Both the position numbers and the translations under genes were made by a program. The notes under the pieces are model-generated. The model made no database searches and was not told the DNA's origin. It saw only the letters and a list, made by a program, of their open reading frames with translations. From Schizochytrium sp. TIO01 (Eukaryota > Protista > Bigyra: Labyrinthulomycetes): a stretch of 64,000 bases of DNA. The stretch covers positions 3,410,001 through 3,474,000 of the forward strand of contig SMSO01000034.1 of NCBI GenBank assembly GCA_004764695.1. Direction: 5' to 3'. Below, one piece after another: positions 31,331-58,805 of this stretch (positions within the stretch are counted from its first letter, which is position 1; the number at the start of each line of letters is the position of its first letter).

Positions 31331-32699
31331 ATGGTACGTGCGCGAAGGCGCAGGAGAGGACGCGGAGGACCCACGTCAGGATTTGGATACGCACGCTGCG
31401 AAGCCTTGCTCCAGGCGGCACCGGTGTTGCATTTGAAGATGTGGCATGATGGCCTTTGCTCGACATGAACGAAAGGCTGTGGATAGCGAACGCGAGACAA
31501 GCACCTTGGATATCAAGGACTTGGGGCGATGTAGCTATGCGATTATGGACGAGACCGGCGTAATCGTAGCCACAGTGATTGCTAGCCTGTTTGGTCGGGC
31601 ATCTTCAATGTGTGGTGGTGCCACAACCTTGGAAGCACGACGGGGCTGAGGTTTATCTCTTCTCACTCGATGGCTATTAATTTCGAGCAAGACGCTGCCT
31701 GCACGGCTGGTGCTATGATCCCTGAGAACTCTGCCTGCAAATGAAAAGTGATGATTCACCGTCATGGTCACTTGCTTCAGAGCTTTCATATCGTCGTACT
31801 ATTGGGCTATAGGTGGTAACGAGTGACGGAATGGTGGTTGCCATCGTGCGATGAACCAATGTATAGGATGAAACTTACAAACTTAGTCAGATTGCCTGTG
31901 GATGGTGGCGATAACTTGTCTGCTCTCTAGCCTTCACATGACTGCTAGGGAGTAAATCTGGCTATGGATAGTATAGTTCTTCGTACCTTGCGCGGTTCTC
32001 GTTGATTGAGACAGCATGCAAAGCTCATAGTGTAGTTGATGAGCTAGAATGCTTGAGAGATTGCAAATTATTGACGGTCCTTATGCGGTTGCAAAAAAGA
32101 TATGGAGAGCAAGTGTTTGACTAACATTAGTTGTGTTGATTGTGTTATTTTGTTGCTATGTTTGACAGGCCGAGACTCAGGAGAAGAAGGGCTTGAACAA
32201 CCCTATGCGCGAGCTCCGCGTTGAGAAGCTCGTGCTCAACATCTCTGTTGGTGAGAGCGGTGATCGCTTGACCCGTGCCAGCAAGGTGCTCGAGCAGCTC
32301 TCTGAGCAGAAGGTGTGCCAGTCTAAGGCCAAGTACACCCTCCGTGGCTTCGGTATCCGCCGTAACGAGAAGATCTCTTGCCACGTGACCGTCCGCGGCG
32401 ACAAGGCCATGGAGATCTTGGAGCGTGGCCTCAAGGTCAAGGAGTACGAGCTCGAGAAGGGCAACTTCTCCGACTCCGGCAACTTCGGTTTCGGTATTAC
32501 TGAGCACATTGATCTCGGTCTCAAGTACGACCCCAACACCGGTATCTACGGTATGGACTTCTACGTTGTTATGGGCCGCAAGGGCTGGCGCGTGTCCAAG
32601 CGCAAGAAGTGCCGTTCCCGGATCGGTGCTTCCCACAAGGTGACAAAGGGCGAGACCCAGGCTTGGTTCCAGAAGAAGTTCGAGGGTATTCTCGTTTAA
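31331..32699 (+). CDS. RPL11: 60S ribosomal protein L11 (uL5); join(31331..31333, 32169..32699)
   Basis: ATG followed directly by a GTACGT donor. Branch point GACTAAC at ~32120 and acceptor GACAG at 32168. Exon 2 reads [44 protein letters not shown]...[29 protein letters not shown]. Confidence 0.98.
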
Positions 32700-33021
32700 A
32701 CTTTATAACATCACATCAACCTGACTTGTCGCCGTCTGCGTGCCTTCGGTCTCGTTTTTTTTTCGTTGTTCTTCGTTGATCTTATAGGTCTATTGAAGTC
32801 CCATCCTTTCCCTCTTTATATCTTTTTCCCCTTTTCTCGAGGCTTGTTTGTCTCTTCACCCGCACGTCAGAGCACGGCGACCGTCCATCTCCCTTCACTT
32901 CGCAAGAGAAACTTGTATGACCTTGTTCCAATCGGAGATAAACCTTATCGGGCAACGCAAGAAAACTCTTGCTGTATTGATTGTTAGTCATGAAGTACAG
33001 TTTGGGGCCTTGATTTAATTC

Positions 33022-34706
33022 TCATCTTTTCATAAAGCCAATTATTTGTTTTGCCCAAGATATTTTGTTTGACTTTATTATTCTACGAATTGGTTGTGGA
33101 TGTTCATGATTTGAATTCCGAGTTATTTCTTTTAGATCTGGCTTAAAGGATTCCCTGCGTAGCCAAAACTTACCCAATGTAACTTTGAGGATCTTTTGTA
33201 TTTCATTGGATAAGTGTTGAGTATCAAAACAACACTGAAGGCCGTCCTTGGTGAATTCAGGTTGCCTCAGATACCTCTCTTGTTTTGACAAAGATAACAG
33301 ACAAAAATTTAGAAAACACAGGAGCTTCAAATCCACATGGAGCAGACATGATTTGCATATTGAGGCAGATACCATTACAATCTGCTTCAGGCTTTGTCTT
33401 CTGTTTTTGCGAAGATCTTAATTAAAAAAAACTTATAATTTATCTAGTGTCACATCCATTATGGCTACTCCTATCAAACTAAATAAAGCATACTGTTATG
33501 ATATATTTAATCTGTGCATTGAAACGTGTTTGGTAAACCCGAGTTGAGAGGATAGTGGCTTTTGTTCTTGGCAAGAATTGGCAAGAATTCTGTTCAATAC
33601 GTATTAGGTTTGAGACTCAATGAAATGTTTCCCCTTTATTCTCCAAAGTCCTGTCTTAGAGTTGTTTCAGATTGAGTTCAGTACTTTTGAAAGTTTGACA
33701 AATTGTACAAAGCGTGCACATGATCTTTAGAAGAGATGTTGTTCAAGTTGAAGTTGCCAATTTAGCTTTTCTGAAGAAATTGTAAACCTACACTATTGAG
33801 ACAACAAGAGAACCTGCGATAATTCTTCCTGATAAAGTCGCTCAAGAAGTAGAACAATCACGCAAATGAGAAAATAGATAGTGGGCTAGACAAGTACGGG
33901 GAGCGAAGCATCTTTTTAAAATACGATTAAACTTTCTTGCTCGACTTATCTCTGCTCTTAAATGGACCGGGTCACATCAAATAGATGCACATGTGTATAA
34001 TGTTTAGAAATTGTTGCTGGGTCTTCCTTGAGGAATGTGGTGTCGAATATGGCTGGCTGATTTAGTCTTGCTCTCAAATCATTTGTAGCATATTCACACT
34101 TCACGCCTCTAATTGTAGCAACAAAGGGAGGGAATATTTTTCGCGCCATAAAAAAATCCTGTATTGAGATTGAGTAATCAACCAAAGGCACATGTATTAT
34201 GACTTTGGATTGTAATAATAAGAACTACATGTTATAAGACATAGATCAAGCTCTGAACTATCTAGTGTGCAAGCTTATCTCGTGTGCACGCTTGTAGAGC
34301 AGTGCAGGCAATTCATGCATGAACATTTTATTTCCCTTCTACAGCTCCAGTCCAGCATGGTTTCGCATTTGTTAGACTTAGCCATATGCAGAAACAAAAT
34401 GTGTCTGGAGCAAGGCTACCGTCTCAACGTCTCGTTTAAATGTACTCATCTTCATGCCTGCTTCCAGACCTTCAAAGCATCGACCCATTTTTGTGCAATT
34501 GATAATTGTTCAGTGCTCACCTGCGAATCGCCGTCAGTCACGATTGAAGACATAGCAATCAAAAGTAAGAGTACTGGAGACAAATCATCATAAGTTAACG
34601 CCGGCGTTGCAGTAGTGCTGGTCGCATCCGTGGTAGCTTCCACCGTTGTCGTGGGTTCGTAAGTTGTAGTTGTAGCTTCACTTGTTTGAGCAGCAGTCGT
34701 GGACAT
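33022..34706. pseudogene. Cluster of short or disrupted AT-rich coding-like fragments at the left edge of the gene-dense island
   Basis: ORFs 33022-33375(-), 33958-34191(-) and Thr-rich 34452-34706(-), plus a stop-interrupted stretch at ~33460-33870(+). The Thr-rich N-terminus resembles the island mucin-like proteins. No family recognised. Confidence 0.35.
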
Positions 34707-34822
34707 TGAAGTAGGATCTCTTTGTCAACCATACACTCCCAAACTAAAAAAAATACTCACTTTTCGGTAAAAAAAGATTAAAATTGGTTTGTTTAAATCA
34801 TAGTAAGAAGCGAGGTGCGTAC

Positions 34823-35559
34823 TTACTCGTCCTCCTCCTCTGAATCAGCATAGTCATCGCTCTCATCACCATTTTCTGGGGGCGGAGCAAGTGATTCCAC
34901 AGGAGTAGTAGTAGTAGTAGCCGCAGTCGCGCTAGAAAGGGAAGGAGTCCCACCTTTCTTATTGCGAATCTTCGAGCGACGCAAAACAACAACCTCATTA
35001 CTGCCAAGGTGCTCCTGGATATAGGCAAACGTCTCGTCGCCACTCAGTCCTTCTGCAGGGCCATCAGGACCAAAAAGCTCGCCGATGACAGGCTTCAGGC
35101 GAGTCTTGTTCATCGGCACTGCGCGAGTGGAACGAAGCAGTTCAGAAGCTTGAGGCCAGCGCGACTTGTAGCCGCCAGCGTGGGCAGCGTGAACTTACCC
35201 TGAGGGAAAAAGGCCTTTCGAACAATGTGAATAATAATGATAAGCATTCCGGCGCAGCAGCAGGAAAGAGAGGTCAAAAGCAATTCAGGCAAGCGCTCCA
35301 TGTGCTTTTCAGGGACCGCATACCCCAGTGGATAGATTGTGGTCACACTAGGCATTTCTTCGCGCATCAAAAAGGCAAAAATGAACAGAACTGCCGCAGT
35401 AGCAAAGAAAACGGTGATAGCGCGCCGAATGTAGTGCTCGTTCTGATCAACTAAACTAACAGCAAGTGCAATGGTCAGAGCAGCACAAATGTTTCCAATT
35501 AAATAACGCCCCGCTCGTTTCTCTCTCTGAGCTAAGTATTCTTCAGGTGTTAGAGTCAT
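34823..35559 (-). CDS. Hypothetical 3-TM membrane protein with acidic C-terminal tail; join(35199..35559, 34823..35118), ~218 aa
   Basis: An 80-nt GTAAGT...CGCAG intron (35119-35198) joins two listed ORFs in frame (FFPQ-V-PMNKTRLK). There are three hydrophobic segments. Confidence 0.7.
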
Positions 35560-35602
35560 TGTATTTCCTTTGTTTGCATTTAGTCTTTAAAGGGGAGAAA
35601 AT

Positions 35603-36481
35603 TTAAACCCAAAATGGAAAGGTTTGAAGCTCGGTCCATCGGTCTGCGCTTCCCTGTGCTCGACGGTTCAACTTTTCGAGCTTTTCGGGCGTATAAGGAC
35701 CTCGCAGCAGAAATGATTTAATGACTTCGACATTCGAAGATTTTGCACACGCATGAGTAAGTGCATTCCACACTGATGCTTCAACAGATGTCTCGTTCAC
35801 ACCGTACAGTTGCATAAGGTTGGTGCAATCCTTCTCGGACAGAAAAAACGAGGATAAATCTCCATCGTCAAAGGGTCTTATCTTTTTTATACCGTCTGTG
35901 AGAGTGCAGGCTTTTGAGTAATGCGGAAGCGAGCTCACTACAAAAATGACCAATCCATCGATGTTCACCAACTCGCGCAGCAAAGACTGTATCGGTGTCT
36001 CTTTTGAACCAATCTTGGACTGAGGAAGGACCTCAGAAGGGGGCAGGCACTCCACATGATCTAAAACCACAACAAAGGGAGACTCCTGACGTGCTTTTGA
36101 ATCTACAAGCTTCTCAAAAACCTTTTCGGCAGGGTAGTCACTGAAAGAGCTAATGAAACAATGTTTCACCCCAAGGGACTTTACAAAGGACTTGTCAAAC
36201 GAGGCGAAATCCACATAATGAGCACCGGGTAAAGCCCGCTGAAGAGCGGTCGTCTTTCCACACCCTTTGACTCCAGACAAAATGTAAGCACGGCTCGAAG
36301 CCAAGTGTTTGCGATACGCGTGTCGCTTCAACTGCTGCTCTAAAGGATGAACGAAAAAATCACCCTTATCGGACTGCAAGGGAGGGAGGTTGCTCTTCTG
36401 ACAATTTCTGTAAAGACACGCCAAAGAGAGTCCACTACCTAAAACAAATGCCGGTTTTAAAACACCAAAACTCTTCATCAT
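35603..36481 (-). CDS. P-loop NTPase (AAA+/STAND-like) with N-terminal hydrophobic segment
   Basis: Walker A YILSGVKGCGKTT, Walker B VVVLDHVE and sensor strand VIFVVSS. Confidence 0.75.
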   Translation of the reverse strand: MMKSFGVLKPAFVLGSGLSLACLYRNCQKSNLPPLQSDKGDFFVHPLEQQLKRHAYRKHLASSRAYILSGVKGCGKTTALQRALPGAHYVDFASFDKSFVKSLGVKHCFISSFSDYPAEKVFEKLVDSKARQESPFVVVLDHVECLPPSEVLPQSKIGSKETPIQSLLRELVNIDGLVIFVVSSLPHYSKACTLTDGIKKIRPFDDGDLSSFFLSEKDCTNLMQLYGVNETSVEASVWNALTHACAKSSNVEVIKSFLLRGPYTPEKLEKLNRRAQGSADRWTELQTFPFWV

Positions 36482-36769
36482 TATTACCTTTTCTTTCTCT
36501 GGTCTCAAATAGCAAAAACATATTATTTGAAGGGTCTTTTTTACTCACCGCTCTTGGTAGCGATAAGTATAAAGAACAGATGTCATAGCTCCGGTGACCA
36601 GCAAACACAACACAAGGTAAATGTTTCTGAATTGATTTATCTTAGGTGGCGGCATCCTCTTTCTTGGTTTGTTTTGTTTTGTTTTTCACTTTGAAAAAGG
36701 GAGCACAAATTTATTTTGTCTTACAGAAGTTAGAGTTACTCTAAACCATACTTATTGGATCTCATTATC

Positions 36770-39678
36770 ATGGTTTCTACTACAGAAAAGTCTCAAGTAT
36801 TTCAAAATGCTTTAAAAACAGCGACAACAAACATGGGTAAAGACAAGGCTGGAAGAGGATGCAACAAAAGTCTCGCAGCAGGTCGCCTGGGAGTGAAAGT
36901 TGACTGTCCTGACATGGCTCGTTTCGCACCAAGCGACGGGTCCAGCAGGTACACTCCTTTGCATGTAGATCGTCGCTTCGAATTTGCTGATGCAGAGAGT
37001 TTCGACTGGGGTACAGTGAACATGAGCAACGAAAAAACCATCAACCACCCTGCAGTTGATGAGGAGCACCCCTTTCTCACCCAAGAAATGTTCATGGAGG
37101 ACCGCGATTCCTGGCTCACCGAAAACGTCGTGAAGAATGGAAAGCTACCTAAGGGCATGCGATACGCAGTTGACTGGCGCTACATTGGTGGCATCCCGCC
37201 AACTGCAAACGGACAGTTCAAGGAACGCTCTATTCGACGCTGGGTGCGGCCTGTTCAGACCAGCCAGTGCGGCAGTATCTGCACGCTCACAGGCATGCGC
37301 CAAGAAATGAGTTTGCATCGCTGTGCGCAGCTCGGTGAGATGAGTCGCCACCGCAAGATTGCTAACGTACCCTACCTCTACACCAATCACTATAAGCACC
37401 AGTTCTACTACGCCAATTCTTACCACACCCAGCTAGCAAAGGACAATTTTGTGCGCGTAGGAAACGAGATTGTCAACGAAGATGACCCGCTAGAGACCTG
37501 GGTTGAAGTTAAGACAGACGAAGAAACAGGCGAGCTTATCAATTATGACTACGCTCTCGACACCGAAGGCCAGAAGGCAGAGCGCAAGCTTGTGCAGTCA
37601 GTGGACAACGTTCTCAGCAAGGAAGAATTTAAGTGGCCATCGAAGCGCGACGACCCCAAGGCGCAAGCTTCCCAGGTCTACACCAGTAATAAGGTCGATC
37701 CTTACTTTACTAAATTCGTAGACGAAGACTACAAGGTCCCTGATGGCCTGCAAATTGGCTCGGAAAAGGTTGACATCGAGGACTGGGTCCACCTTGCTCC
37801 TTACAACCCAGTGGGCAACTGTTCTGACCCTTCCTGGAACCGCTACCGCAAGAGCCTGAAGAACTGGGGCGCAGCGACGGAAAGAATAAGTGGGGAGGCG
37901 GCAAGAATAAGAAGGGTGTCACACCTATTGAACTTCTGGCTTACAAGGGTGATGGCAAGTGGGAGCGCCACTTCCAGTCTAATAAGAAGGTTCGGAAGCG
38001 AGCACCTTTCAAGTCAGCTAAAGAGTTCGGAGGCGCAGTCGGTGCTACAAGTATGACTCGCAACTACAATTGGTCGTGGAGCACAAATGGTCGCACGCGC
38101 GAAAACCAGTACTCTATCCATTCTCCACTCTACGTCTGTAAGAACCAGGGAACCTTTTTGACAGGAGAAATGGCAGAAGCTTCACCAGCTATCTTCCTTG
38201 CCTGGGTACTCGATAACTACGGACCCGTGGTGCATTCGTTTGCTAATAGCACTTCTGGTGATAACTTTGCTGAGCACTGGCGTCTTTCTGGAGGCACCAT
38301 CAAGGAACTTGGCAAGATCCTGTACCCAGAGCTTATGCTCACTGGTTATAATGATGCAGTCGATCGCGCAGTCCGCGCCTCTCTCGACGGCTACACTACA
38401 GCAAACTACCTGAAGGGCGACGACATGCGCGCCGGCACTAACAGCGGGCACACCTGTGTTTGTGTTGGTTATTACTTCTTGCCAGACGCCAAATCTTATG
38501 TCACCGATGAGGAGTCAGGAGAAACCGTGCTGCGCGATGATCCTCAAATGGTATTTATTTACATGAATTCACACTTTAACGCAGGAACTTTCCAGGGCAT
38601 GCGTGGCTTTATCGTGCGCACAATGAGCCTCACGCACGGTGTGCTGGGCATCAACGAACTTCGCACAGGAATTCATCTCTGGAACCCAGAGGGGCGCCCC
38701 ATCAAGTACTTCTATGACGGCACTGCTTATGTCCCTGACTCGCTGCCACAGCATGCTGGTGGCTCTAACGAAGTCCGTGGTCTCTCGCCCTATGATTGGC
38801 GCCAGACAATCGACTACGATCAGTCTGGTCGCACGCGAGAGTTCGTCAAGGAAATGCGCCCTGAAGCTAGCTCAGAAGACACTAAGATGGACCGCGAAAT
38901 CTTCGAACCGCCCAAGTTCACTGCACGAGTTTCGTCAGAGTATGACGGGTTCTTCGTATCGCCAAACACACAGTGTGAAGGAAGCAAAGCCACCAAGACT
39001 TACCGCAGCACTGCAAATCTCGATAAAAAGATCAAAAACTGCAAGGGTAAGTGCAAGTTTGTAGAAGTTGACGAAACAGCCAACACAGTTAAGTTCTACC
39101 AATCCTGCGCACTTGCAAATGACGACACAGGCACCACCGTTTATGTAAACAACGACGTCAAAGACGCTCGCTCTCAGAACGGACTGCAGCGCACTATTGT
39201 TGACCAATATTATAACAACTTTCGCAGCATCTGCCGCTTCCAGCGAGGACCCTTCCCGGAGCACATCGAAGGATACCACACCGCAAATGGCCAGGGAGTC
39301 GAAGAAGTTATCAAGGAGGTCAGTGCTAGCACTGCAGAGAATTGCGCAACGAAGTGCAACGAGGACGAAAAGTGCACTCACTTCACCTGGGATGCAAGCT
39401 CGCGCATGTGCGAATTCGGAACCGGACTCTATGCAGCCACGCGCCGATCCTCTGTAAACCGCCCCACTTACGTAAAGTTCTCAGAGGATACCCCTATGAC
39501 CAGTCCTCCTGTAGTGACAGGACCTCCCGAGGAGGAAGTCGAGGAAGAACCGGAAAGCGAAGACGAAGAGGTGAACGAACCTTGGATCGACGAGCTCAAG
39601 GAAGAGGTTGAACAAGGCGTCTGCGACCAAGAAGATATCGACGAGGAGGACGAGGAAGAGGAGGAGCCAGAAACCTGA
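36770..39678 (+). CDS. Large (~970 aa) divergent papain-like (clan CA, C1-like) protease with C-terminal PAN/Apple domain and acidic tail; one G missing at 37866-37869
   Basis: LPKGMRYAVDWR, RPVQTSQCGSIC, NYGPVV, NSGHTCVCVGY and VFIYMNSHF appear in papain order. STAENCATKCNEDEKCTHFTWDASSRMC is PAN-like. The frame of ORF 38053 is open back to ~37870. Possible 5'-UTR intron at 36617-36726. Confidence 0.7.
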
Positions 39679-39720
39679 AGAACTACTATTTTTTGTTAAT
39701 ACTTCTTGAACACCCAGACT

Positions 39721-40836
39721 ATGATTAAAGCACAAGTCATCTTACTCGCGCTCAGTATCTTCATACTTCTTACTGGAGCTGGACTTCTCATAGCCGGACA
39801 AAACGTTGCTAGCAGCAGGTCACTTGCAAGCGAAACAAGCGACACTACCACCAGTGACACTAGCACAACCAGCAGTTCTACAGAAGCATCTACTACTGCT
39901 GCTGCTACGACAACTGCTGCTGCCGCCACAACCACTGCTGCTGCTACGACCACTGCTGCTGCCACAACCACTGCTGCTGCTACGACCACTGCTGCTGCCA
40001 CAACCACTGCTGCTGCTACGACCACTACCGCCCCAGTAGCAAGTGTCTGCAAAGTGATTGACGCAAGTCTAACACTCTGTGCTGGCGACGTCTATAAAAT
40101 TAAAGACACTCAATTGGCTTCAAATGGACAGCAGCGGTACATGGAATATTCCAGTGACTGGAATGCAGGCTTACAAGGGAGCTGGCGTTATATCACTCTT
40201 TCAAGTGCAACAAACCCCCAAGAGGACATGCAAGAAGTGACAATTAATATTACTGATTACGGAGTGCACTTTCTTGCTCCAAGCCTGGGCTATTTTATTG
40301 ATGCGTCAATTGCTTATATTTATCAACTAGCAATTCTGAGAAACGTAGATGCCATAGAGACCAACGCTTTCAACGTTAGTTCTAACAACGGCGCTTACAG
40401 CATCAAGAGTTCCACCAGAAATAATTGGATACAACGCTACTACTCAAATAACAACATCGGATACGGCTCCGCGGGCAGCGATGCCTCTCTAGCAAACAGA
40501 CGATGGACCTTTGAGCCAGTCACTCTCATGAGTCGCCAAGGAGCAAGGTTTGTTACTGACTCTAGCGAAGCAAATGATGAAGAAAATAAACAAAAGCTCA
40601 GAAGTACCTTCCTTATTTCAGGAGGTGTAATCGCTGGACTAGGAGCCCTCTCTCTTATTGGCTCAATCGCGTGGATCATGATCACAGAAGACAAAACGCG
40701 ACCACCACAGGAACAGCCACAACAGCCCAAACAGCCCAAACAGCCTGAACAACCCAAACAAGGAACCCAGAGCGGGTACATTGCGGCCCAAAAATCCTCG
40801 GCGCAAACATCTTTGCCAGGCGTAAGAATGTTTTAG
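39721..40836 (+). CDS. 2-TM surface protein: N-terminal signal/anchor, Thr/Ala mucin stalk, beta-rich (possibly beta-trefoil) domain, C-terminal TM, QPK repeats
   Basis: Hydrophobic VILLALSIFILLTGAGLLIAG, (TTTAAA)n stalk, Cys pair VCKV..LTLCAGD, RWTFEPVTL, TM FLISGGVIAGLGALSLIGSIAWIMI. Confidence 0.75.
   Translation: MIKAQVILLALSIFILLTGAGLLIAGQNVASSRSLASETSDTTTSDTSTTSSSTEASTTAAATTTAAAATTTAAATTTAAATTTAAATTTAAATTTAAATTTTAPVASVCKVIDASLTLCAGDVYKIKDTQLASNGQQRYMEYSSDWNAGLQGSWRYITLSSATNPQEDMQEVTINITDYGVHFLAPSLGYFIDASIAYIYQLAILRNVDAIETNAFNVSSNNGAYSIKSSTRNNWIQRYYSNNNIGYGSAGSDASLANRRWTFEPVTLMSRQGARFVTDSSEANDEENKQKLRSTFLISGGVIAGLGALSLIGSIAWIMITEDKTRPPQEQPQQPKQPKQPEQPKQGTQSGYIAAQKSSAQTSLPGVRMF
39890..40030 (+). 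repeat. Coding minisatellite, 18-bp units alternating ACCACTGCTGCTGCTACG / ACCACTGCTGCTGCCACA (TTTAAA peptide)
   Basis: Direct tandem repeat with a 36-bp higher-order period. Confidence 0.92.
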
Positions 40837-40872
40837 TAAAAATCATTATCATCAGATAGACACGAACACAGA

Positions 40873-41814
40873 ATGGACGAAACACCCCTAGATAAACCGC
40901 CTCATTCAAAGTTAAAACTTATCTCTATCTCGCTCCTGGCCAGCGGAACTATTGCCACTCTAACTGGAGCCATTGTCATCGGAGTTGGTCAAACGCAACA
41001 AAGCCGGAGCACGATAGAGGATGTCACAATCCCAATTACCACGGAAACAATTACAACAGCAGCTGCGACGACAACTCCCGCTGTTACAACAACTAGCACC
41101 ACCGAAACAACAACTGCTGCAGTCGTGACCATAGGACCAACGGCTCCCATCAGTAGCGACTGTTTTCAAGTCAGCAAGTTTACAACCTTCTGCTCCGGAG
41201 ATACATTTAAGCTACACCATTACCTCTGGACAGAAAGAAATGGAGTCCAAAGCTTTCTTCAAGCCGCAGAACCCAAAGAATTAGATGGTTTCGGAGAAAT
41301 CCAAACCCTGGAAATCGGAACCGCCCAATCCGACTCAGATAATAGACAACTGCTTCGACTCGAAGCCCGATCAGAAACACCAGTTGATCTCACCTGGAAC
41401 CTATATATTAGCAACGGATTCCTCGCCGAATCCTCAGATTATTTAAACAAAATCTCGCCATTTGTAGTGCTGGACAAAGATAGAAACGATCCCATTCCTA
41501 TTAAACTGGACTTTAAATCAGATGGGTCCGTGGATATCGTGCACGGAAACACGGGCCAAGCCCTTGAACTCGATACTCTGTTCGGCACTTGGTTGCCCCA
41601 TTTCATAGATAAAACTACCGACACTGGCTTGTGGTATCTGATTCCACAAACTCTCGTTCCGAGGGCTGGCACAGTGCAAAACGCCAGTAGTTCAAACAAG
41701 GCACCAATCATTGTCGGGGCTATCTTATGCGGACTCGGAATTACAGCTCTAATTATAGGAGCAATTCTACTCAAAAAATCAAATACACAAGTGCCTCAAG
41801 AAAACGGTAACTAG
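40873..41814 (+). CDS. Paralog of the upstream 2-TM mucin-stalk protein
   Basis: Same architecture and aligned motifs: LTGAIVIGVGQ vs LTGAGLLIAGQ, DCFQV..FTTFCSGDTFKL vs VCKV..LTLCAGDVYKI, WYLIPQTLVPRAG vs WTFEPVTLMSRQG, GAILCGLGITALIIG vs GGVIAGLGALSLIG. Confidence 0.78.
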   Translation: MDETPLDKPPHSKLKLISISLLASGTIATLTGAIVIGVGQTQQSRSTIEDVTIPITTETITTAAATTTPAVTTTSTTETTTAAVVTIGPTAPISSDCFQVSKFTTFCSGDTFKLHHYLWTERNGVQSFLQAAEPKELDGFGEIQTLEIGTAQSDSDNRQLLRLEARSETPVDLTWNLYISNGFLAESSDYLNKISPFVVLDKDRNDPIPIKLDFKSDGSVDIVHGNTGQALELDTLFGTWLPHFIDKTTDTGLWYLIPQTLVPRAGTVQNASSSNKAPIIVGAILCGLGITALIIGAILLKKSNTQVPQENGN

Positions 41815-41829
41815 ATACAATCAATCTGT

Positions 41830-42207
41830 TTATAGTGTAATTGTAAAGTCGAACTTTCTAAAGTCCTCTAGACTTGGAACTCTCTCCCCCCAACTTATTC
41901 TAAAGGAATTAAACCCCAGAGGAGATATAACAAAACCAAGTTCTTCTAAACGCCCCACTATCCTTTTCGAGCATTGTAAAACTAGTTTCTCTAGAATTTC
42001 GTTCCCAGCATCGTCCAATTTTTCGGAATAACGAATCAATTTAATACGGGTGTTCATCCCACCCCGTTGGGCAACATTTGTTATCAATTCTTCAATCGAA
42101 CACAGTTTCCACCGCAAATAATTTTTCAGTTCCTCGAGAATCAGAGCATTCACCTCGGCATCGCTCACTTTCAATGCCGCGTCCATACAATCCTTGGCAG
42201 TAAACAT
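41830..42207 (-). CDS. Hypothetical protein (125 aa)
   Basis: ATG-initiated ORF with protein-like composition, tightly packed and convergent with the previous gene. No motif recognised. Confidence 0.55.
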   Translation of the reverse strand: MFTAKDCMDAALKVSDAEVNALILEELKNYLRWKLCSIEELITNVAQRGGMNTRIKLIRYSEKLDDAGNEILEKLVLQCSKRIVGRLEELGFVISPLGFNSFRISWGERVPSLEDFRKFDFTITL

Positions 42208-42646
42208 CGTTTCACTACAGATAGATTCTTACTTTCTCTTCTTTCTCAGCAAATAGAAAATAAAAAGATCGCCTTTTTGCATTGAACTATTTGCCAACTT
42301 TCCTTTTCACCATCTTTTAGTTCCTACTCTCTTTCTTCCTTAGCAAATAGGACCGAAAACCTTTGAAAATTTTTAATCTTTTATCTATTAATAGTTTCGC
42401 AAAATAGAAAAAAAACTAACACTATGAAAATCTCCAGTGTTTTATTTTAATTCTAAATAAAACCCAAAATGTTTTTAATTGGTTATTTGGCTTTACACAC
42501 CCTTTCTTTATAAAGTGTGTAAAGCAGAACTTTCTAGGAACAAGTTTCCCTCTTTCAATCCCCTGAAAAGTCAATGGGTGCAAGCTAGCAAGCAAATCCC
42601 TAACTCAGAGCGCCTAGGAATACACAGGACGAGCAAACTCGCAAGG

Positions 42647-45556
42647 ATGGCGGATGGCGCAGCAAGCCAGGCGTGGCCTTCTCCACTTCACGATGTCCTC
42701 GCCAGGTATAAGAATGCGGAAAGCACCGTGAAAGAGCTAACCAAAGATGTCAACGATTTTTTGAAGATACTGAGAAGCGATGAGAAACTCAGCAAGCGAC
42801 GAATTAAGATGTATGAAGAATCTTTGGAACTGACACAGCTACAGTTGAAAGATGCACGAGATGAGGAGTTTTTTTATGCGGTGCTGTCACCGGTCTCTGA
42901 GACCCTGGATGAAACATATCGGCACATCAGAGACAACCCTGCACTATTCCTCGAACCCGTGCCAGTTTTCACGCCCGAAGGGAAGTTCGCGAAGCTTTTT
43001 CACCCCAAAGTCGAAATTCCGCTAAATCTCGCCTCCGGTAGCCCAGCCCCCGATTTCCTCACTCATGATCTTTTGGGGCGTTTTAACGAGAATTTTGAAA
43101 ACTTTGACGAAATTGTTTCAGGTGATCACCAAACACTCATGAGCTTTTACGGCACCTCGGGCGCTGGAAAGACGAGATTGATTTTTGAGATTTTTGCTCG
43201 AAGCTACGGACTGTACTTCGTTGCTGCTGACAGCCGTACACTCAACCCAGGCAGCTACGATATCGCAAGTCTTTACTTCGAGTTGGGGCGCTTTGCCAAA
43301 GAATCCACGCCACTTGAAAATGGTGAGCTTGCAAACTTCTACACAATCGCTCTGATATTCTGTAGACTGCTGGTTTTCTGTGCACTCAAGCACGCCCTCG
43401 GCACACATGGAAAGGTGCCTTCCGAGGAGCTTTGGCTTCGCGTACAGCTCGCACCACGGCACTACTTCGCTGAGGATGTGTTTAACGCACTGTTCTCTAC
43501 ACTTATTTCTGGCTTTAACGAGGATTTGAGTATCTCAAACGCTGCAGAAGAACCTCGCCGTATACTGAAGAAATTAAAACCCATCTGGCGAAACATCCGT
43601 GACTTAGTTGAAGGTATCAAGTTTAATGTAGCCTTTGACGAAACACAAGTACTAGCCAAGAAATTTGTGGGTTTTTTTCACTCCTCTGAAGACCAAGATG
43701 AGAGGCGAAGTTTGCTCTCTCCGGTCTCCAAAATACTCACGTCCATAGTAGATACTCACAAACTCATTAATCACCCCATTTTCTCCGGAACGGGTTTTTC
43801 TATGGTCCACATTACAACGCAACTGTCCAGTGCGTCTGCAAAAGATACCAAGAACCCATCTTTGCATTACAAATTTCCCTCACTAGGCACAGCTAGCGTT
43901 GAACAATATATTGGGACTATTCTGGACTTAGACCAATTGGATGAACATGTTGTTCAGTACACATGCAAATGGCTTACAGGAAGACCCAGGTGGACAGTTG
44001 CATTTTTAGATATTCTACTGGGGAGAGAACTTCAATCGAGTGACCCAGAAGACCTCAACGCGAGCTTCATTCAAGAGATACGTCGCTTCGTCGAAATCAT
44101 GACACACCCGAACGCTTTTGATACTATACCAGAGAATCAGCGCGAATCAAGAGCATCCTGGCGTTATAAAGCAAACTCCACCGCACTGACTGCAATCAAA
44201 CGGATCGATGAGAACAAAAAAGAAATCCAAGATTTCCAAGATTTCCTAGATGCGCTCGTAACGCATCTCTTTACAGACGAACCCGTTTGTTTAAAGAATA
44301 AATCTGCACAGAAACTGGTTGACGACGGAGTCTGTCAAGTCAGTTCGGTAACGGTCCAGGCAACACGAAGAGGCTATGTCCCAGATGGATTCTTTGTCAA
44401 ACTTGATGAACCTCTGGTGCTTGAAGCAGCACTACAGAACTTTCTTAAGGAGGGAACCCTCCTCGAGTTTGTTGTCAGCAAGATTAGGGAGACGGGTTCG
44501 CAAGACTATATGGAGTACTATACCATGCTATGTGCTTTGAAACACATGAATTCTACACTAGATGTGGCGAAGGAAATTATTATTCAGGACCATTCTGATC
44601 GCCGCGAAATGTTGTTTGATCATCTTGAAATGCCCAAAAGATCGTCATTCGGAAAATTGGTGCGCAATTGTAGCAGAGACCAACAGGAAACGCTGGATTG
44701 GTTATCGGAAATGAACGGGTATGCCTCGGAGGGCTTGATGGATTGGGTCGAACCCTTTTGTTACCCATTCGATGATTTCGGGGCAGATGTGATAACGATG
44801 ATGCGTCGCACAACGGTACCGGATCTAACTAGCGATGAAGCGTTCGTCCCAGTCTTGATGCAAGTAAAATATCCAAATCGCGGAGAAAGCGAAAAGATCA
44901 GAAGGGGACAAAATACAAAAGCACTACTAAGTGTATTTCCGGATCTGGCTTTCAGGGCGAAAAAAGCCAAGGTTGAGATCTACAACGGGAAGCGGTTTCC
45001 CATGTTTCACTGGACCAACCACAATAAAAAGAAATTTCCTGAAATCCTTTCCGTGTGCAAGGATTTCTTCCGCGTTGAGGAGCTGAACTATGACAAGGCC
45101 ACCCCGCAGCGAAGGGCCGAAGCTGATGCAGAATGTTTATACATCCATGAGATTAGACAAAAACAGAAGGAACAGGCAAAAAAAGAACGAGAACAAGACA
45201 TGAATGAGTTATTCAAACGGGATTTGGATTGGAGAACACGCAGTCGTCCTGTGATCATGATGGTTTGCCAGACAGAAGAGGCGAGTGATTTTCTGACCTC
45301 CTTCTTGAGTCACCCAGGAGAAATAGATGGCCCGAGGCTTATTGCGGAATCAGATTCGCATGAACTTAGCCAAACAATCACAGATCTCCACTGTCAAGAG
45401 CGGAACTGTAGACATGAAATCCACGACATTGTTTTGTCCATTGATGCTCGTGCTGATAATGATGTTGCACATGCTTTCTTCTCGAACAGCAATTTTATCA
45501 CAATTGCACAAAACGCGGTCGTAGAGCACAGAGGGCGCCGAACGGACCAGCGATAA
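42647..45556 (+). CDS. Crinkler/RHS-type NTPase + PD-(D/E)xK restriction-endonuclease-fold protein (~970 aa)
   Basis: Walker A FYGTSGAGKTRL followed by YGLYF, Walker B VAFDETQ, IFSGTGFS, WLTGRPRWT, LDEPLVL and C-terminal FCYPFDDFGADVI...VLMQVKY. This motif series is typical of CR-NTPase/CR-REase pairs. Confidence 0.75.
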   Translation: MADGAASQAWPSPLHDVLARYKNAESTVKELTKDVNDFLKILRSDEKLSKRRIKMYEESLELTQLQLKDARDEEFFYAVLSPVSETLDETYRHIRDNPALFLEPVPVFTPEGKFAKLFHPKVEIPLNLASGSPAPDFLTHDLLGRFNENFENFDEIVSGDHQTLMSFYGTSGAGKTRLIFEIFARSYGLYFVAADSRTLNPGSYDIASLYFELGRFAKESTPLENGELANFYTIALIFCRLLVFCALKHALGTHGKVPSEELWLRVQLAPRHYFAEDVFNALFSTLISGFNEDLSISNAAEEPRRILKKLKPIWRNIRDLVEGIKFNVAFDETQVLAKKFVGFFHSSEDQDERRSLLSPVSKILTSIVDTHKLINHPIFSGTGFSMVHITTQLSSASAKDTKNPSLHYKFPSLGTASVEQYIGTILDLDQLDEHVVQYTCKWLTGRPRWTVAFLDILLGRELQSSDPEDLNASFIQEIRRFVEIMTHPNAFDTIPENQRESRASWRYKANSTALTAIKRIDENKKEIQDFQDFLDALVTHLFTDEPVCLKNKSAQKLVDDGVCQVSSVTVQATRRGYVPDGFFVKLDEPLVLEAALQNFLKEGTLLEFVVSKIRETGSQDYMEYYTMLCALKHMNSTLDVAKEIIIQDHSDRREMLFDHLEMPKRSSFGKLVRNCSRDQQETLDWLSEMNGYASEGLMDWVEPFCYPFDDFGADVITMMRRTTVPDLTSDEAFVPVLMQVKYPNRGESEKIRRGQNTKALLSVFPDLAFRAKKAKVEIYNGKRFPMFHWTNHNKKKFPEILSVCKDFFRVEELNYDKATPQRRAEADAECLYIHEIRQKQKEQAKKEREQDMNELFKRDLDWRTRSRPVIMMVCQTEEASDFLTSFLSHPGEIDGPRLIAESDSHELSQTITDLHCQERNCRHEIHDIVLSIDARADNDVAHAFFSNSNFITIAQNAVVEHRGRRTDQR

Positions 45557-45596
45557 AAATTGTTGCTGTTTCTACCTAATAAAGTAAAAAATCTCA

Positions 45597-46685
45597 TTAT
45601 TTTCGTTTGGGTTTATAAAATCCACTCAAGTCCCAGACCGAGGTGTAATCCAAAATGTGCCCATAAGGCAAGGCAAGGTCAAACAAGTAACAGGCTCTCT
45701 TACGTAGACGCCGGAGTTTCGCACCCACTCTGTTCTTTTTTTCACCAGGACCAAGAAGTTCAAGCATCTCCAAATCTGACTCCACGCCTTCTTCTAGAAA
45801 ACCCAAAGACCACCTGTTGGGGTCTCTGGAAGGAGTCACAGGAAACTTGCATTCGTGCAGGGCGGATACGAGTCGTATTAGTTTCTCAATTTTAACCAGA
45901 TTTCGCCTGACTCTTTGCCAAATTCTGTTTACGACAGGAAAATGAAACTCCGTCTTATCAGGCGTGCGGATGCGAAAGCCCACTGTGTTGAAGTTCGTAG
46001 ACTGGTCGTCAATAAATTTCTGGATGACGGCTCCGGTACGGGGGTTTTCACCCAATAATTTATTAATGCGTATGCGCAGGGTTCGGAAGTTGACTAGAAC
46101 AGGAGAAAGATGGTGCTCGAGGAAATATAAATACTTGTCAATATCTATATCATCCCAATAATAATATTTCATCCTAAGTCGTGATTTTGAGTCTTTGGGC
46201 ACCAAAGGCAGGATCACCGAAAAAAACTCATCCAGTGACTTTGTTTCAACTTCGACGTGGCAAAGCTTGGGGAAAAAACTAAAGTATCCATGTTCGATTG
46301 TTTTTTCACCCCACTTGAAATCGTTGAGAATAAGTTTCTCGAGGGAGTATTGGGACTTTTCACGAAGCACCTCCAAAACATCAAAGGGGTCGGGGCGTTC
46401 AGGCGAATCCATCTCAAAATGTTTCAATTTTCCACAGCGCCGGATCAACGTTAAAAAAAGCCTTGGGTTGTTCTCGAATCGAATTTTTATATCATACTCA
46501 TTCGTGCATGGGCAAATTCTCAGATAAGTCACACTATCCAGTACCAAATCAGAATTCACGATTACATCGAGACCGACGTAAGTAAGTATAACAAGGGAAC
46601 TTGTGTCCGACGCCAGCTCAACTGTCACGCGGTGCAGTGCAAATTCCCTCCACGGGAGATGGTAAAACTCCTCAAGGACGCTCAT
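45597..46685 (-). CDS. Hypothetical protein, possible LRR/F-box-associated repeat fold (~362 aa)
   Basis: Long ORF with LxxLxL-like segments (CGKLKHFEM, SLEKLILN, FPKLCHVEV, FRTLRIR). Confidence 0.55.
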   Translation of the reverse strand: MSVLEEFYHLPWREFALHRVTVELASDTSSLVILTYVGLDVIVNSDLVLDSVTYLRICPCTNEYDIKIRFENNPRLFLTLIRRCGKLKHFEMDSPERPDPFDVLEVLREKSQYSLEKLILNDFKWGEKTIEHGYFSFFPKLCHVEVETKSLDEFFSVILPLVPKDSKSRLRMKYYYWDDIDIDKYLYFLEHHLSPVLVNFRTLRIRINKLLGENPRTGAVIQKFIDDQSTNFNTVGFRIRTPDKTEFHFPVVNRIWQRVRRNLVKIEKLIRLVSALHECKFPVTPSRDPNRWSLGFLEEGVESDLEMLELLGPGEKKNRVGAKLRRLRKRACYLFDLALPYGHILDYTSVWDLSGFYKPKRK

Positions 46686-46981
46686 CAAGGACGCTCATCA
46701 AAGCCAGAATGCTCAGATCAAAACAGCAGGCCTATTTTGGGTTTTGCTTAATAAAACTTTCCTTCTGCTTCTGCTTTAATTTTCTTAAAGAATAAAATCA
46801 ACTTAAAAAAATTAAAAAATTCGAAAAAGGTCTCCTCAATTTTTCTCTCTACCAGACGGTAAGGCAAAAGTCGGGAGCCCTTTGTCCTTTTTTTCTTTTA
46901 AGCAATTTAAAAATTTGCAAGAAAGGAAGCTAGGAAACAAAGACAGAGTAAAAAGAAAAGAATAGTACGGGTCTACTTTCC

Positions 46982-47446
46982 ATGATAGAAAAACTGCTTG
47001 ATGATAAACAGATTAAAAATCTGGATACCTTGTGTCTGGTCTATGAAAAGTATGGAAATCTCTCTGCGGCCCAACGTGCAATGGTTCTCAACGATCCCAG
47101 GGTGAAAAATGCCCCACGCCGTTTACTAGGGATCTGGCACTACACGAATCGCCACTATGGAATGACTGGGCATGTATACTATATAACCCGAGTAGCTAGA
47201 ATGCTAGGGGTCGACGAGGAAATATTTTTTGAAGATTGGGTGGAGAAGTATGGTAAAAGGGGGGTGGATTGGAGCTTTAATAGGCCGAAGGAAAAACCCA
47301 GCGAAGTGCATACTATGCTAAGCGAAGAGTTCGTTCGTCGATTGTTTCTAATTCACGAAAGGGAAACAAAAAAGACAGAATGTACTGGGTTCTTGCTTAT
47401 GATGAATGGCGTTATTGAAAAATACGCAAAGTCAAGCAGTACTTAA
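46982..47446 (+). CDS. Hypothetical protein, tandem paralog copy 1
   Basis: Shares VY.KYGNLS.AQR..VLN.P.VKNAP.R...WH.TN..(Y/F)G.T..VY with the next ORF. Confidence 0.7.
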   Translation: MIEKLLDDKQIKNLDTLCLVYEKYGNLSAAQRAMVLNDPRVKNAPRRLLGIWHYTNRHYGMTGHVYYITRVARMLGVDEEIFFEDWVEKYGKRGVDWSFNRPKEKPSEVHTMLSEEFVRRLFLIHERETKKTECTGFLLMMNGVIEKYAKSSST

Positions 47447-47630
47447 AAAAATAACTTTATCTAAACATTTCAAGTTTGTTAAAAAAAACTTCTCAATTAT
47501 TCTCTCCTCCTGATGACAAGTGAAAAATCAGGGCCGCTTCTTGTTTTTTTAATTTTGGTTTCCTTTAAGCATTTCATTCATAGTGAAAGGGAATCCAGAA
47601 AAGAAAGACAGAGTGAAAAAAAGAAATAGC

Positions 47631-48053
47631 ATGGAGTTACTTTCCGCGATAGAAAACGTGGTTAGAAAGGGCAAACTTTACGATTATGAGAAGCTGCTGG
47701 AGGTCTATACAAAGTATGGAAACCTATCCACAGCTCAACGCATATACGTTCTCAACAATCCCGACGTGAAAAACGCACCTGCTCGCGTGCAGGACCTCTG
47801 GCACCTCACAAATAGCAATTTTGGAGTGACCGATTTTGTCTATCATTTAGAACACGTAGCTGCCATTCTGGAGGTTGAAGATTTGTTCAAATTTAGAGAG
47901 GAATGGATGAAAAAGCACGGTGAGGTGAGCAACGCATACCTTTGCTCTTCAATGAAGTTCCATTTGTTCTCCTTAAAGAGGAATAAACACAAACGATCAA
48001 AACGTGCAAACCAGCAAGGCAGCGTTCAGGTTGTTCAAGGCAATACCTTCTGA
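47631..48053 (+). CDS. Hypothetical protein, tandem paralog copy 2 (3' end diverged, truncated or spliced after ~47925)
   Basis: Homology with copy 1 runs to EEWMKKHG and is then lost at a GTGAGC (donor-like) site. Confidence 0.6.
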   Translation: MELLSAIENVVRKGKLYDYEKLLEVYTKYGNLSTAQRIYVLNNPDVKNAPARVQDLWHLTNSNFGVTDFVYHLEHVAAILEVEDLFKFREEWMKKHGEVSNAYLCSSMKFHLFSLKRNKHKRSKRANQQGSVQVVQGNTF

Positions 48054-50866: not shown

Positions 50867-50918
50867 CATACACACATACATACACATACATACACATACA
50901 TACATACATTCATACATA
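50867..50918. repeat. (CATA/CACATA)n microsatellite
   Basis: Imperfect tandem repeat. Confidence 0.85.
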
Positions 50919-51214
50919 GAGGTAGTAGATAACTAAATACCTCTCAACCACTACCTACTCTGCGCTTAGAACTGGAAAAGACTACCTTGATAGGTATGTG
51001 TGGTGGTGCAATGAGCAGTAGGTACGCGCAGGTAAATCTTGATTGATCAATTCGTTGAAACCAAGCTTTCAATTCTGTAGAAAATAATCGTAAGCTTTCA
51101 AAGCAAAAAATAATTAAATAGAAACATTTATTTTGTAGATTTCCTCTTTGAAAACAAATAAAATTAGATGGTGCATAATTTTATTTATATAATTGTTTAT
51201 TATTTTTAATTTTA

Positions 51215-51240
51215 AATAATAATAATAATAATAATAATAA
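51215..51240. repeat. (AAT)n microsatellite
   Basis: Direct tandem repeat. Confidence 0.85.
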
Positions 51241-51614: not shown

Positions 51615-51659
51615 ATACATACATACATACATACATACATACATACATACATACATACA
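51615..51659. repeat. (CATA)n microsatellite
   Basis: Direct tandem repeat, ~11 units. Confidence 0.93.
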
Positions 51660-58776: not shown

Positions 58777-58805
58777 GAAGAAGAAGAAGAAGAAGAAGAA
58801 GAAGA
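58777..58805. repeat. (GAA)n microsatellite
   Basis: Direct tandem repeat. Confidence 0.88.

What the first reader, a model, noticed from the sequence alone, without database searches (positions are those of the whole stretch)
33000..48053. ~15 kb gene-dense island of orphan-like genes: candidate endogenous large-DNA-virus fragment or effector island
Seen: directly after RPL11 the architecture changes. About ten genes are packed with several gaps of only ~15-45 bp (35559/35603, 39678/39721, 40836/40873, 41814/41830, 45556/45597), the spacers are AT-rich and the long microsatellites typical of the flanks are absent. There are two internal tandem duplications, a decayed left edge and a truncated-looking right edge. 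The content (divergent protease, paired mucin-stalk membrane proteins, ATPase, NTPase-nuclease, LRR-like and small orphans) includes no recognisable housekeeping gene. Known: thraustochytrids harbour integrated and episomal mirusvirus-like elements, and large DNA viruses have such compact orphan-rich genomes. Inference: an integrated viral segment or a mobile effector/defence island. No capsid, terminase, PolB, integrase or terminal repeats are visible, so a viral origin is unproven.
Basis: partly seen in the sequence, partly recalled or inferred. Interest (0 to 1): 0.78.

Follow-up and report, generated by a model that had tools for sequence, protein, structure and literature searches.

The report
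Duplicated, decaying virus-like gene island
A tightly packed block of about a dozen unfamiliar genes sits in the chromosome of a marine single-celled decomposer, with a second, differently broken copy elsewhere in several strains; it is likely a leftover piece of a large DNA virus that is now decaying, but no virus marker gene proves this.

Summary
The island is real. From 34452 to 48053 it is 89% coding, with a median gap of 80 bp; the host flank is 42% coding with a median gap of 1,589 bp. Contigs from independent runs bridge both edges, so it is not a misassembly. The host is a thraustochytrid.
New here: (1) A second version leaves the window sequence at 35170 (5 of 7 runs laid), and a version lacks 35549-40223 (5 of 7). 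(2) The two protease ORFs are one gene of about 968 aa, a papain-like protease with PAN domain(s). It is frameshifted here and in one other run and intact in two. Its only full-length relatives are unnamed environmental proteins, one on a 169-kb contig. (3) The 969-aa NTPase-nuclease has diverged paralogs, so it looks like a resident multi-copy family.
No capsid, terminase, A32, PolB, integrase or terminal repeat was found, nor any match in IMG/VR or to AurliV-1/-2 motifs. Composition is host-like.
Best reading (0.5): a decaying accessory-gene fragment of a large DNA virus. Rivals: a host duplicated cluster (0.25) or a cargo-carrying mobile element (0.2).

The parts
32168..32699 (+). Host RPL11, second exon (left flank; not part of the island)
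   Evidence: 90% cluster with Hondaea fermentalgiana RPL11; run X1 shows a GT..AG joint 31332->32168
33000..34450 (.). AT-rich, CpG-poor stretch without recognisable genes; membership of the island unproven
   Evidence: GC 0.37; CpG o/e 0.54 in 33001-34000; no Pfam match in 23 frames; depth like the flanks in 3 DNA-type runs
34452..34706 (-). Short Thr-rich ORF (84 aa), possible remnant of a stalked protein
   Evidence: no family
34823..35167 (-). Open frame with acidic tail running up to the 35170 breakpoint; likely the 3' remnant of a truncated gene
   Evidence: frame is open across the breakpoint; breakpoint
35169..35170 (.). Breakpoint where a second version of the island continues into at least 5.6 kb of other sequence
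   Evidence: same loose end in X7 and X8, X17, X18, X19; only 93 of the 5,695 nt of X17 record 3 fit the stretch laid; the window form is bridged by contigs in X2, X7, X8, X17 and X19
35110..35559 (-). Small protein with three hydrophobic segments; its 3' end differs between the two versions
   Evidence: hydropathy; loose end read by eye gives a stop five codons after the breakpoint in the other version
35603..36481 (-). AAA-type P-loop ATPase, 292 aa; not shown to be an A32 packaging ATPase
   Evidence: Pfam AAA 21.7 bits, just over the cut-off of 21.2; AAA_16 E 4e-5
36770..39678 (+). Predicted papain-like cysteine protease with PAN/apple domain(s), about 968 aa when intact; frameshifted at the G-run 37866-37869 in this assembly
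   Evidence: both halves align end to end with single 1,024-1,081-aa proteins; Q166 and C171 invariant; His and Asn motifs; PAN_1 E 2.4e-7; X17 and X19 lack 2 nt at 37866, X8 has the window form
39721..40836 (+). Membrane protein 1: N-terminal and C-terminal hydrophobic segments, Thr/Ala stalk, predicted beta-trefoil (lectin-like) domain
   Evidence: hydropathy; Atlas feature score 0.90 to ricin-B-type clusters, lead only; a second version lacks its 5' half (joint 35548->40224)
40873..41814 (+). Membrane protein 2, tandem paralog of protein 1
   Evidence: 31% identity; hydropathy
41830..42207 (-). 125-aa orphan, alpha/beta; only weak fold likeness to small viral proteins
   Evidence: model pLDDT 54; best BFVD E 0.02; best PDB Z 5.6
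42647..45556 (+). 969-aa P-loop NTPase with a predicted restriction-endonuclease-like C-terminal domain (CR-NTPase+REase-like layout); member of a diverged multi-copy family
   Evidence: Walker A, Walker B, SGTG, GRPRW and D..QxK motifs shared with P0001 (53%) and P0002 (25%); P0001 cluster includes an MMETSP transcript; many divergent contigs and loose ends here in 3 DNA-type runs
45597..46685 (-). 362-aa orphan; LRR-like only by eye
   Evidence: no match in Pfam, PHROGs, PADLOC, NCBIfam or PDB
46982..47446 (+). 154-aa orphan, first of a tandem pair
   Evidence: duplicated unit 46824-47166 vs 47481-47830 is 66% identical in DNA
47631..48053 (+). 140-aa orphan, second of the pair; similarity stops after about 98 aa
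   Evidence: right edge bridged by contigs in X1, X2, X7 and X8

Best explanation
The block from 35170 to about 47800 is likely a fragment of accessory genes from a large DNA virus of thraustochytrids (mirusvirus- or skiavirus-type, donor unidentified) that was likely captured in the chromosome next to RPL11; it exists in at least two differently broken versions, and its protease gene is frameshifted in some strains. Shown: compact packing, chromosomal linkage to RPL11, a second version with a different left continuation, a version with a 4.7-kb internal deletion, and the polymorphic frameshift. Inferred: entry by chance DNA repair rather than by an own integrase, since these viruses are reported to use the host nucleus and no integrase or terminal repeat is present. 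Inferred: later segmental duplication and deletion. Inferred: the NTPase-nuclease gene comes from a resident multi-copy family and is a passenger. Inferred original job: a cell-surface or envelope module, in which the stalked beta-trefoil proteins and the PAN domains would bind glycans or proteins and the papain-like domain would cleave surface proteins during entry or exit, or to block superinfection. Today the block is likely near-neutral, though contigs of RNA-like runs cover most of it.
For: Gene packing matches AurliV-2. In the 8 consecutive AurliV-2 ORFs I read, the gaps are -4, 342, 221, 2, 39, 76 and 58 bp (median 58, counted by hand), and they include a tandem pair of PAN-domain membrane proteins 39 bp apart. 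The island median is 80 bp and the host median 1,589 bp. No GT..AG joint inside the island was listed, while RPL11's intron was (one search listed 15 of 19 joints; one search listed one), and X17 and X19 run colinear across the protease gene. The protease's relatives among 1.84 billion representatives are 7 unnamed Logan/ENA/JGI proteins plus one unrelated PAS-repeat hit, and one more came. The five full-length representatives are single ORFs of 1,024-1,081 aa on contigs of up to 169 kb and 45 kb, with amino-acid composition suggesting AT-rich DNA (GARP/FYMINK 0.59-0.70). PAN/apple proteins occur in many giant viruses and in AurliV-1 and -2. Decay is visible: the frameshift, a gene cut at 35170 and the deletion version. 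Host-like GC is no obstacle, since AurliV-1 has the same 45% GC as its host (PMC12606086). Virus-to-host gene transfer is reported in thraustochytrids (bioRxiv 10.64898/2026.07.28.741200). Hallmark-poor islands of viral and orphan genes are reported in Acanthamoeba (PMC12210455).
Against: No capsid, triplex, portal, terminase, A32, VLTF3, PolB or integrase match among 14 ORFs (9 island ORFs). No relative in IMG/VR in 8 of 8 scans, in JGI metagenomes, in GTDB genomes or in phage records. Of 12 motifs searched in the AurliV-1/-2 ORF tables, only one four-letter motif hit, by chance, in an unrelated TFIIB-like ORF (cells are cut at 400 letters). The contigs that carry the protease relatives could not be read, so their viral nature is a guess; two host proteins score as low on the composition index (0.68, 0.84). 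PAN domains, mucin stalks and beta-trefoils are common in cells too. The largest gene has paralogs among what look like host transcripts, and its layout is that of widespread eukaryotic CR effectors. Codon use and tetranucleotides are host-like. No empty site was seen: all three DNA-type runs carry the island next to RPL11.
Confidence: 0.5

Rival explanations
1. A host cluster of fast-evolving surface and conflict genes (CR-like NTPase-nuclease, AAA ATPase, stalked lectins, protease) built and reshuffled by segmental duplication, with no viral history.
For: Host-like GC, codons and tetranucleotides. NTPase paralogs at 53% share the same N-terminus and include an MMETSP transcript. The island is present in 22 of 23 listed runs from 10 studies. 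It is covered by contigs of X1, which shows a spliced RPL11. NTPase+REase genes are widespread in eukaryotes (PMC5289972).
Against: Co-directional gaps of 36-43 bp leave little room for a eukaryotic 3' end plus promoter, and no host gap in the window is under 398 bp. The protease has no named relative in any sequenced eukaryote. Gene-breaking junctions and a frameshift point to relaxed selection.
Confidence: 0.25
2. A partial copy of a large cargo-carrying mobile element (Polinton-like virus, Helitron or another giant transposon) whose mobility genes lie in the part missing here, possibly in the 5.6 kb or more that continues from 35170 in the second version.
For: At least two versions with a sharp shared breakpoint. 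The deletion form has about the depth of the flanks in X2, X7 and X8 (75.1, 371.7 and 21.9 against 71.3, 372.4 and 20.5), a hint that it is chromosomal. Depth over the protease differs between runs (about 0.65, 1.0 and 1.7 times the flanks). NTPase+REase genes are linked to mobile elements such as Medea1 (PMC11342252).
Against: No terminal inverted or direct repeat in 30000-52000. No integrase, transposase, pPolB or capsid match. The same insertion site in all DNA-type runs laid. Contig depth is not a copy number.
Confidence: 0.2
3. An assembly artefact: free viral or contaminant DNA joined wrongly to the chromosome.
For: Abrupt change of architecture; thraustochytrid cultures carry episomal viruses. 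No single contig spans the whole island.
Against: Single contigs run from RPL11 through the breakpoint to 35262 in X2 and X8, and from 47311 to 48922 in X8; X1, X2 and X7 also bridge 48053. X17 and X19 bridge the window form of 35170.
Confidence: 0.03

Closest known systems
AurliV-2 (LE-Chr15), integrated Soporavirales mirusvirus of Aurantiochytrium limacinum (bioRxiv 10.1101/2023.06.15.545109; PMC12606086)
   Same: Thraustochytrid host; chromosomal; compact, ORFan-rich genes with gaps of tens of bases; tandem PAN-domain membrane proteins
   Different: AurliV-2 is about 270 kb, lies between rRNA arrays and has the full virion module. This block is about 13 kb, lies beside RPL11, has no hallmark gene, and its motifs were not found in the AurliV-1/-2 ORF tables.
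Skiaviruses / 'Ariadnavirales' (SmDNAV relatives; bioRxiv 10.64898/2026.07.28.741200 and 10.64898/2026.08.29.747986)
   Same: Thraustochytrid viruses, inferred to depend on the nucleus, with large orphan pangenomes, several proteases and gene exchange with the host
   Different: Reported as circular stand-alone genomes with MCP, A32 and VLTF3, none of which was found here. Their proteomes could not be searched.
Degraded giant-virus islands of Acanthamoeba (PMC12210455)
   Same: Clusters of intron-poor orphan genes, incomplete hallmark sets, pseudogenes, no terminal repeats, strain differences
   Different: There many genes have clear virus hits and are described as silenced. Here no gene has a named viral hit, and contigs of RNA-like runs cover the block.
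CR (Crinkler-RHS) NTPase+REase proteins and Medea1-like elements (Zhang et al. 2016, seen only through PMC5289972 and PMC11342252)
   Same: P-loop NTPase followed by a predicted PD-(D/E)xK-type nuclease; multi-copy and diverged
   Different: No ubiquitin-like header or LXLFLAK motif by eye; no profile test was available; host is a free-living decomposer.
Papain-family (clan CA) cysteine proteases
   Same: Conserved Gln, Cys, His and Asn in papain order with the typical DWR, H..xVGY and NS motifs (motif names recalled)
   Different: Gln-Cys spacing is 5 rather than 6 (papain numbering recalled), an insert of about 300 aa lies between Cys and His, and PAN domains follow. Pfam Peptidase_C1 is not hit.

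Membership tests
Endogenous mirusvirus (Mirusviricota, Soporavirales) | HK97-type major capsid protein, triplexes, portal, terminase | tested here: inconclusive
   No match in Pfam, PHROGs or NCBIfam, but no mirusvirus-specific profiles were available and a fragment need not keep these genes
Endogenous mirusvirus (Mirusviricota, Soporavirales) | Close homologs among AurliV-1/AurliV-2 proteins | tested here: not met
   12 exact motifs searched in the ORF tables of PMC12606086; one chance four-letter hit. Only the first 400 residues of each ORF are searchable, so distant homologs are not excluded
Endogenous mirusvirus (Mirusviricota, Soporavirales) | Compact, intron-poor, ORFan-rich architecture | tested here: met
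   89% coding, median gap 80 bp; AurliV-2 sample median 58 bp. Not specific to mirusviruses
Nucleocytoviricota / skiavirus fragment | Double-jelly-roll capsid, A32 ATPase, VLTF3 | tested here: not met
   None among 14 ORFs; the ATPase scores as generic AAA, not A32
Nucleocytoviricota / skiavirus fragment | Homologs among skiavirus or SmDNAV accessory genes | not testable with these tools
   bioRxiv supplements are closed and the genome index gave no answer in 6 tries
Polinton / Polinton-like virus | Terminal inverted repeats, integrase or tyrosine recombinase, pPolB, capsid, packaging ATPase (features recalled) | tested here: not met
   No terminal repeat; no such gene. Holds for this copy only; the second version's extra sequence was not readable
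Endogenous viral element in general | Joined to host chromosomal DNA | tested here: met
   Contigs bridge both edges in several runs
Endogenous viral element in general | Empty site in related strains or species | tested here: inconclusive
   All 3 DNA-type runs laid carry it next to RPL11; other species could not be compared
Papain-like cysteine protease (clan CA) | Catalytic Cys, His, Asn and oxyanion Gln in papain order | tested here: met
   Q166 and C171 invariant in 6 of 6. His in all 9 rows that cover it; Asn in 8 of 9, P0006 has Asp
Papain-like cysteine protease (clan CA) | Papain fold or profile match | tested here: inconclusive
   No Pfam Peptidase_C1 hit; Atlas rows with Peptidase_C1 at 0.83-0.85, lead only; model of P0004 has pLDDT 30; PDB profile search finds only PAN domains
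CR-NTPase+REase effector | N-terminal P-loop NTPase followed by a REase-fold nuclease | tested here: inconclusive
   Motifs conserved in 3 of 3 aligned proteins; P0002 hits AAA_16 at E 0.004; no nuclease profile or fold match
CR-NTPase+REase effector | Secretion/translocation header (ubiquitin-like with LXLFLAK, or helical header) | tested here: inconclusive
   No LXLFLAK by eye; the N-terminal 90 aa look helical; header profiles were not available
Beta-trefoil lectin domain (stalked membrane pair) | Beta-trefoil fold | tested here: inconclusive
   Atlas 0.90, with all ten best named hits in one clan; no Pfam or PDB match; not folded
Anti-phage-type defence island | Matches to known defence proteins | tested here: not met
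   1 of 9 proteins with a weak PADLOC hit, E 0.001 to an ATPase model

The most novel reading that the evidence does not exclude
The block is a piece of an unrecognised integrating element of thraustochytrids, a further virus lineage or a giant cargo transposon, distinct from the known mirusviruses and skiaviruses. It spreads as multiple chromosomal copies, carries a new family of papain-PAN surface proteases, and uses its NTPase-nuclease as a mobilising enzyme or as a Medea-like selfish module that keeps it in the genome.
Probability: 0.1. Interest if true: 0.75.

Novelty: new member of a known kind. Interest (0 to 1): 0.42.

Why it matters
Hallmark-based scans miss viral fragments that keep only accessory genes. 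If this block is viral, it adds an interstitial, RNA-covered and still-changing viral footprint to a genus where the papers I read describe one large subtelomeric integrant, episomes and one decayed viral polymerase. It gives a handle, the papain-PAN protease family, for finding the donor. Strains with intact and broken alleles allow a direct test of whether such captured genes do anything for the host. If it is a host cluster or the usual viral debris, it is of modest interest.

Tried and rejected
No whole genome was held. The genome index did not answer, so synteny, the empty site and the second copy's sequence stay open.
Searches that found nothing: IMG/VR for both protease halves, two protease alignments, the NTPase, the 125-aa orphan, the tandem pair and a junction pattern; JGI metagenomes (47, 65); GTDB (109, 112); phage records (97, 98). 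These scans need short exact peptide patterns, and one search missed P0009, which is a JGI protein, so the blanks are weak. The first protease search was blank because its length window excluded the 1,024-1,081-aa relatives.
Exact look-ups: none of the island sequences tried is in the 15-billion collection, while 4 of 7 host look-ups (4 of 6 genes) were. This depends on start choice and is not used as evidence.
Structure: P0004 model pLDDT 30; the 125-aa orphan pLDDT 54, with only weak fold likeness to small viral proteins such as ASFV B125R at E 0.16. Neither is used as support for origin.
No Rfam family or tRNA in the window. No RNA holder is on record; X1 was judged RNA from its spliced RPL11 joint, and X17-X19 are the tool's guesses. 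Depth was not used to rank genes.
Rejected: microsatellite absence as evidence; composition as evidence either way; a homopolymer assembly error as cause of the frameshift (X8 carries the same form); programmed frameshifting (intact alleles exist); introns at the GTAAGT sites near 35203 and 34827 (X17 and X19 contigs cross 35203 unspliced); terminal repeats; P0008 as a relative (PAS-repeat kinase).
Literature: no paper held 'giant virus' + 'papain-like' + 'PAN domain'. Motif searches in supplements of PMC12768974 and PMC12221091 were blank. Zhang et al. 2016 is not held. Earlier-finding look-ups by relatives, sequence and words were blank.


Full report
Observation. Between 34452 and 48053 the DNA is 89% coding, against 42% in 1-32700. 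Five of ten island gaps are 15-43 bp and none of nine host gaps is under 398 bp; the medians are 79.5 and 1,589 bp, p=2e-4 (one overlap omitted, host ends taken from ORFs). Spacers are 25-35% GC. The lack of microsatellites follows from the lack of non-coding DNA (expected 1.3, P(0)=0.27). GC, codon use and tetranucleotide profile do not separate island from host. No terminal repeats were found.

Host and linkage. RPL11 falls in a 90% cluster with Hondaea fermentalgiana RPL11, so the host is a thraustochytrid. Earlier scan notes on other pieces of this genome report an AurliV-2-type mirusvirus and a dead Fanzor2 element (unchecked). The stretch 36700-46699 is held by 22 of 23 listed runs from 10 studies. 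I laid seven runs, all as contigs. Single contigs reach from RPL11 to 35262 in X2 and X8, and from 47311 to 48922 in X8; X1, X2 and X7 also bridge the right edge. No single contig spans the whole block, but a misassembly is unlikely. No empty site was seen in the three DNA-type runs.

A second version exists. The same loose end lies before 35170 in X7 and in X8, X17, X18 and X19. In X17 it belongs to a 5,695-nt contig of which only the last 93 nt fit the stretch laid. Read by eye, that version closes the three-helix gene five codons after the breakpoint, whereas the window joins it to the interior of another open frame (34823-35167). The window copy is therefore likely the rearranged one at this point. 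A joint from 35548 to 40224 appears in X2, X7, X8, X17 and X19; the shorter side is only 29-30 letters, but X17 record 4 maps cleanly to both sides and further records start at 40224. That version lacks the ATPase, the protease and half of membrane protein 1. Its depth is close to that of the flanks in three DNA-type runs, a hint that it is chromosomal; contig depth is not a copy number. Depth is raised over most of 35170-47175 in X7 and over parts of it in X2 and X8, and returns to flank level outside, so the shared unit is about 35170 to 47200-47800. The stretch 33000-34450 is AT-rich and CpG-poor but has no recognisable gene, and its link to the island is unproven.

The protease. ORFs 36770-38056 and 38053-39678 are one gene. 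Both halves align in order to single proteins of 1,024-1,081 aa at 27-32% identity. X17 and X19 lack two bases at 37866, which gives one frame of about 968 aa; X8 has the window form and X18 does not cover the site. The frameshift is thus a real difference between strains or copies. Gln166 and Cys171 are invariant in six sequences. The His motif is kept in all nine rows that cover it and the Asn in eight. A PAN domain follows (E 2.4e-7). A papain fold was not shown: there is no Peptidase_C1 hit, Atlas leads score only 0.83-0.85, and the model is unusable. The relatives are unnamed Logan, ENA and JGI proteins, on contigs of up to 169 kb and 45 kb. By eye they end in a hydrophobic anchor, while the window protein ends in an acidic tail with no hydrophobic segment. 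I could not read those contigs.

Other genes. The two stalked proteins have hydrophobic segments at both ends and a globular part that the Atlas places with ricin-B-type beta-trefoils at 0.90 (lead only). The 292-aa ATPase is a generic AAA. The 969-aa protein has Walker A and B, SGTG, GRPRW and D..QxK motifs shared with P0001 (53%) and P0002 (25%). This is the NTPase-then-nuclease layout described for CR effectors and Medea1-like elements (PMC5289972 and PMC11342252, passages; the primary paper was not held), but no profile confirmed the nuclease. P0001's cluster includes an MMETSP transcript and shares the N-terminus, and many divergent contigs pile up over this gene, so it looks like a resident multi-copy family. 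The 125-, 362-, 154- and 140-aa proteins stay orphans. X1, which shows the spliced RPL11 joint, has contigs over most island genes. X17 and X19 are RNA only by the tool's guess; they stop near 34740-34790 where X8 goes on, a weak hint of transcription.

How it most likely works. Thraustochytrids carry persistent mirusviruses and skiaviruses that use or are inferred to use the nucleus and exchange genes with the host (PMC12606086, passages and supplements; bioRxiv 10.64898/2026.07.28.741200, abstract, two of three Results parts and passages; bioRxiv 10.64898/2026.08.29.747986, abstract and one section; bioRxiv 10.1101/2023.06.15.545109, passages and one section; PMC12768974, passages). Eight consecutive AurliV-2 ORFs have a median gap of 58 bp and include tandem PAN-domain membrane proteins 39 bp apart, much like this block, and AurliV-1 has host GC. 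I infer that a piece of such a genome, holding a surface module of glycan-binding and proteolytic proteins, was captured by repair beside RPL11, was partly duplicated, carries a member of the NTPase-nuclease family, and is now decaying. Capture by repair, the donor and the original function are inferred; linkage, packing, the second version and the frameshift are shown. Confidence 0.5.

Against it. No hallmark gene was found. No relative appeared in eight IMG/VR scans, two metagenome scans, two GTDB scans or two phage searches, though these need short exact matches. Twelve motifs were absent from the AurliV-1/-2 tables bar one chance hit. The domains present are common in cells. A host cluster built by segmental duplication (0.25) and a partial copy of a cargo-carrying mobile element (0.2) remain open. 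The genome index did not answer, so synteny, the empty site and the second copy's flank are untested, and the closed bioRxiv supplements on skiaviruses may bear on the donor.

Comparison and verdict. The block works like the hallmark-poor viral islands described in Acanthamoeba (PMC12210455, passages), but it cannot be filed under Mirusviricota, Nucleocytoviricota or Polintons on present tests. I found no paper on this locus or on a viral papain-PAN protease in the searches run, which cover only the open library. It is a new member of a known kind, with one apparently undescribed protein family. Interest 0.42. The bold reading, an unrecognised integrating element with its own nuclease, has probability about 0.1 and would merit 0.75.

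Noticed in passing
window 48054-63330: About 15 kb without a convincing gene (4% coding in 48054-64000) and rich in microsatellites, directly right of the island. No Pfam match above cut-off in 61 of its 67 frames of 75 aa or more (six frames over microsatellites were left out), and no Rfam or tRNA hit.
   Followed up: partly
window 20098-23116: Shikimate kinase followed by two shikimate-dehydrogenase-like domains, split over two overlapping frames near 21490-21630. Possibly a frameshift or intron in one fusion gene; names by eye.
   Followed up: no
window 13889-14635 (-): LarB/PurE-like protein of bacterial look in the host flank; name by eye.
   Followed up: no
window 42507-45841: In run X1 (spliced RPL11, so RNA) contigs over the NTPase-nuclease gene carry very high depth values, one differing from the window at only 2 of 1,062 bases. 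Contig depth cannot rank genes, so raw reads are needed.
   Followed up: no
window 35548/40224: The deletion version puts the three-helix gene (minus strand, start lost) back to back with the 3' half of membrane protein 1, yet RNA-like runs X17 and X19 have contigs across this joint, which hints at a long read-through RNA.
   Followed up: no
window 42530-42590: Paralogous copies of the NTPase-nuclease gene share sequence from about 100 bases upstream of the start codon and then diverge (loose ends and joint in X2, X7, X8), as if the gene moves as its own unit.
   Followed up: no
window 36504-39838: Depth over the protease gene is about 0.65, 1.0 and 1.7 times the flanks in three DNA-type runs, a hint of copy-number or ploidy differences between strains.
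   Followed up: partly
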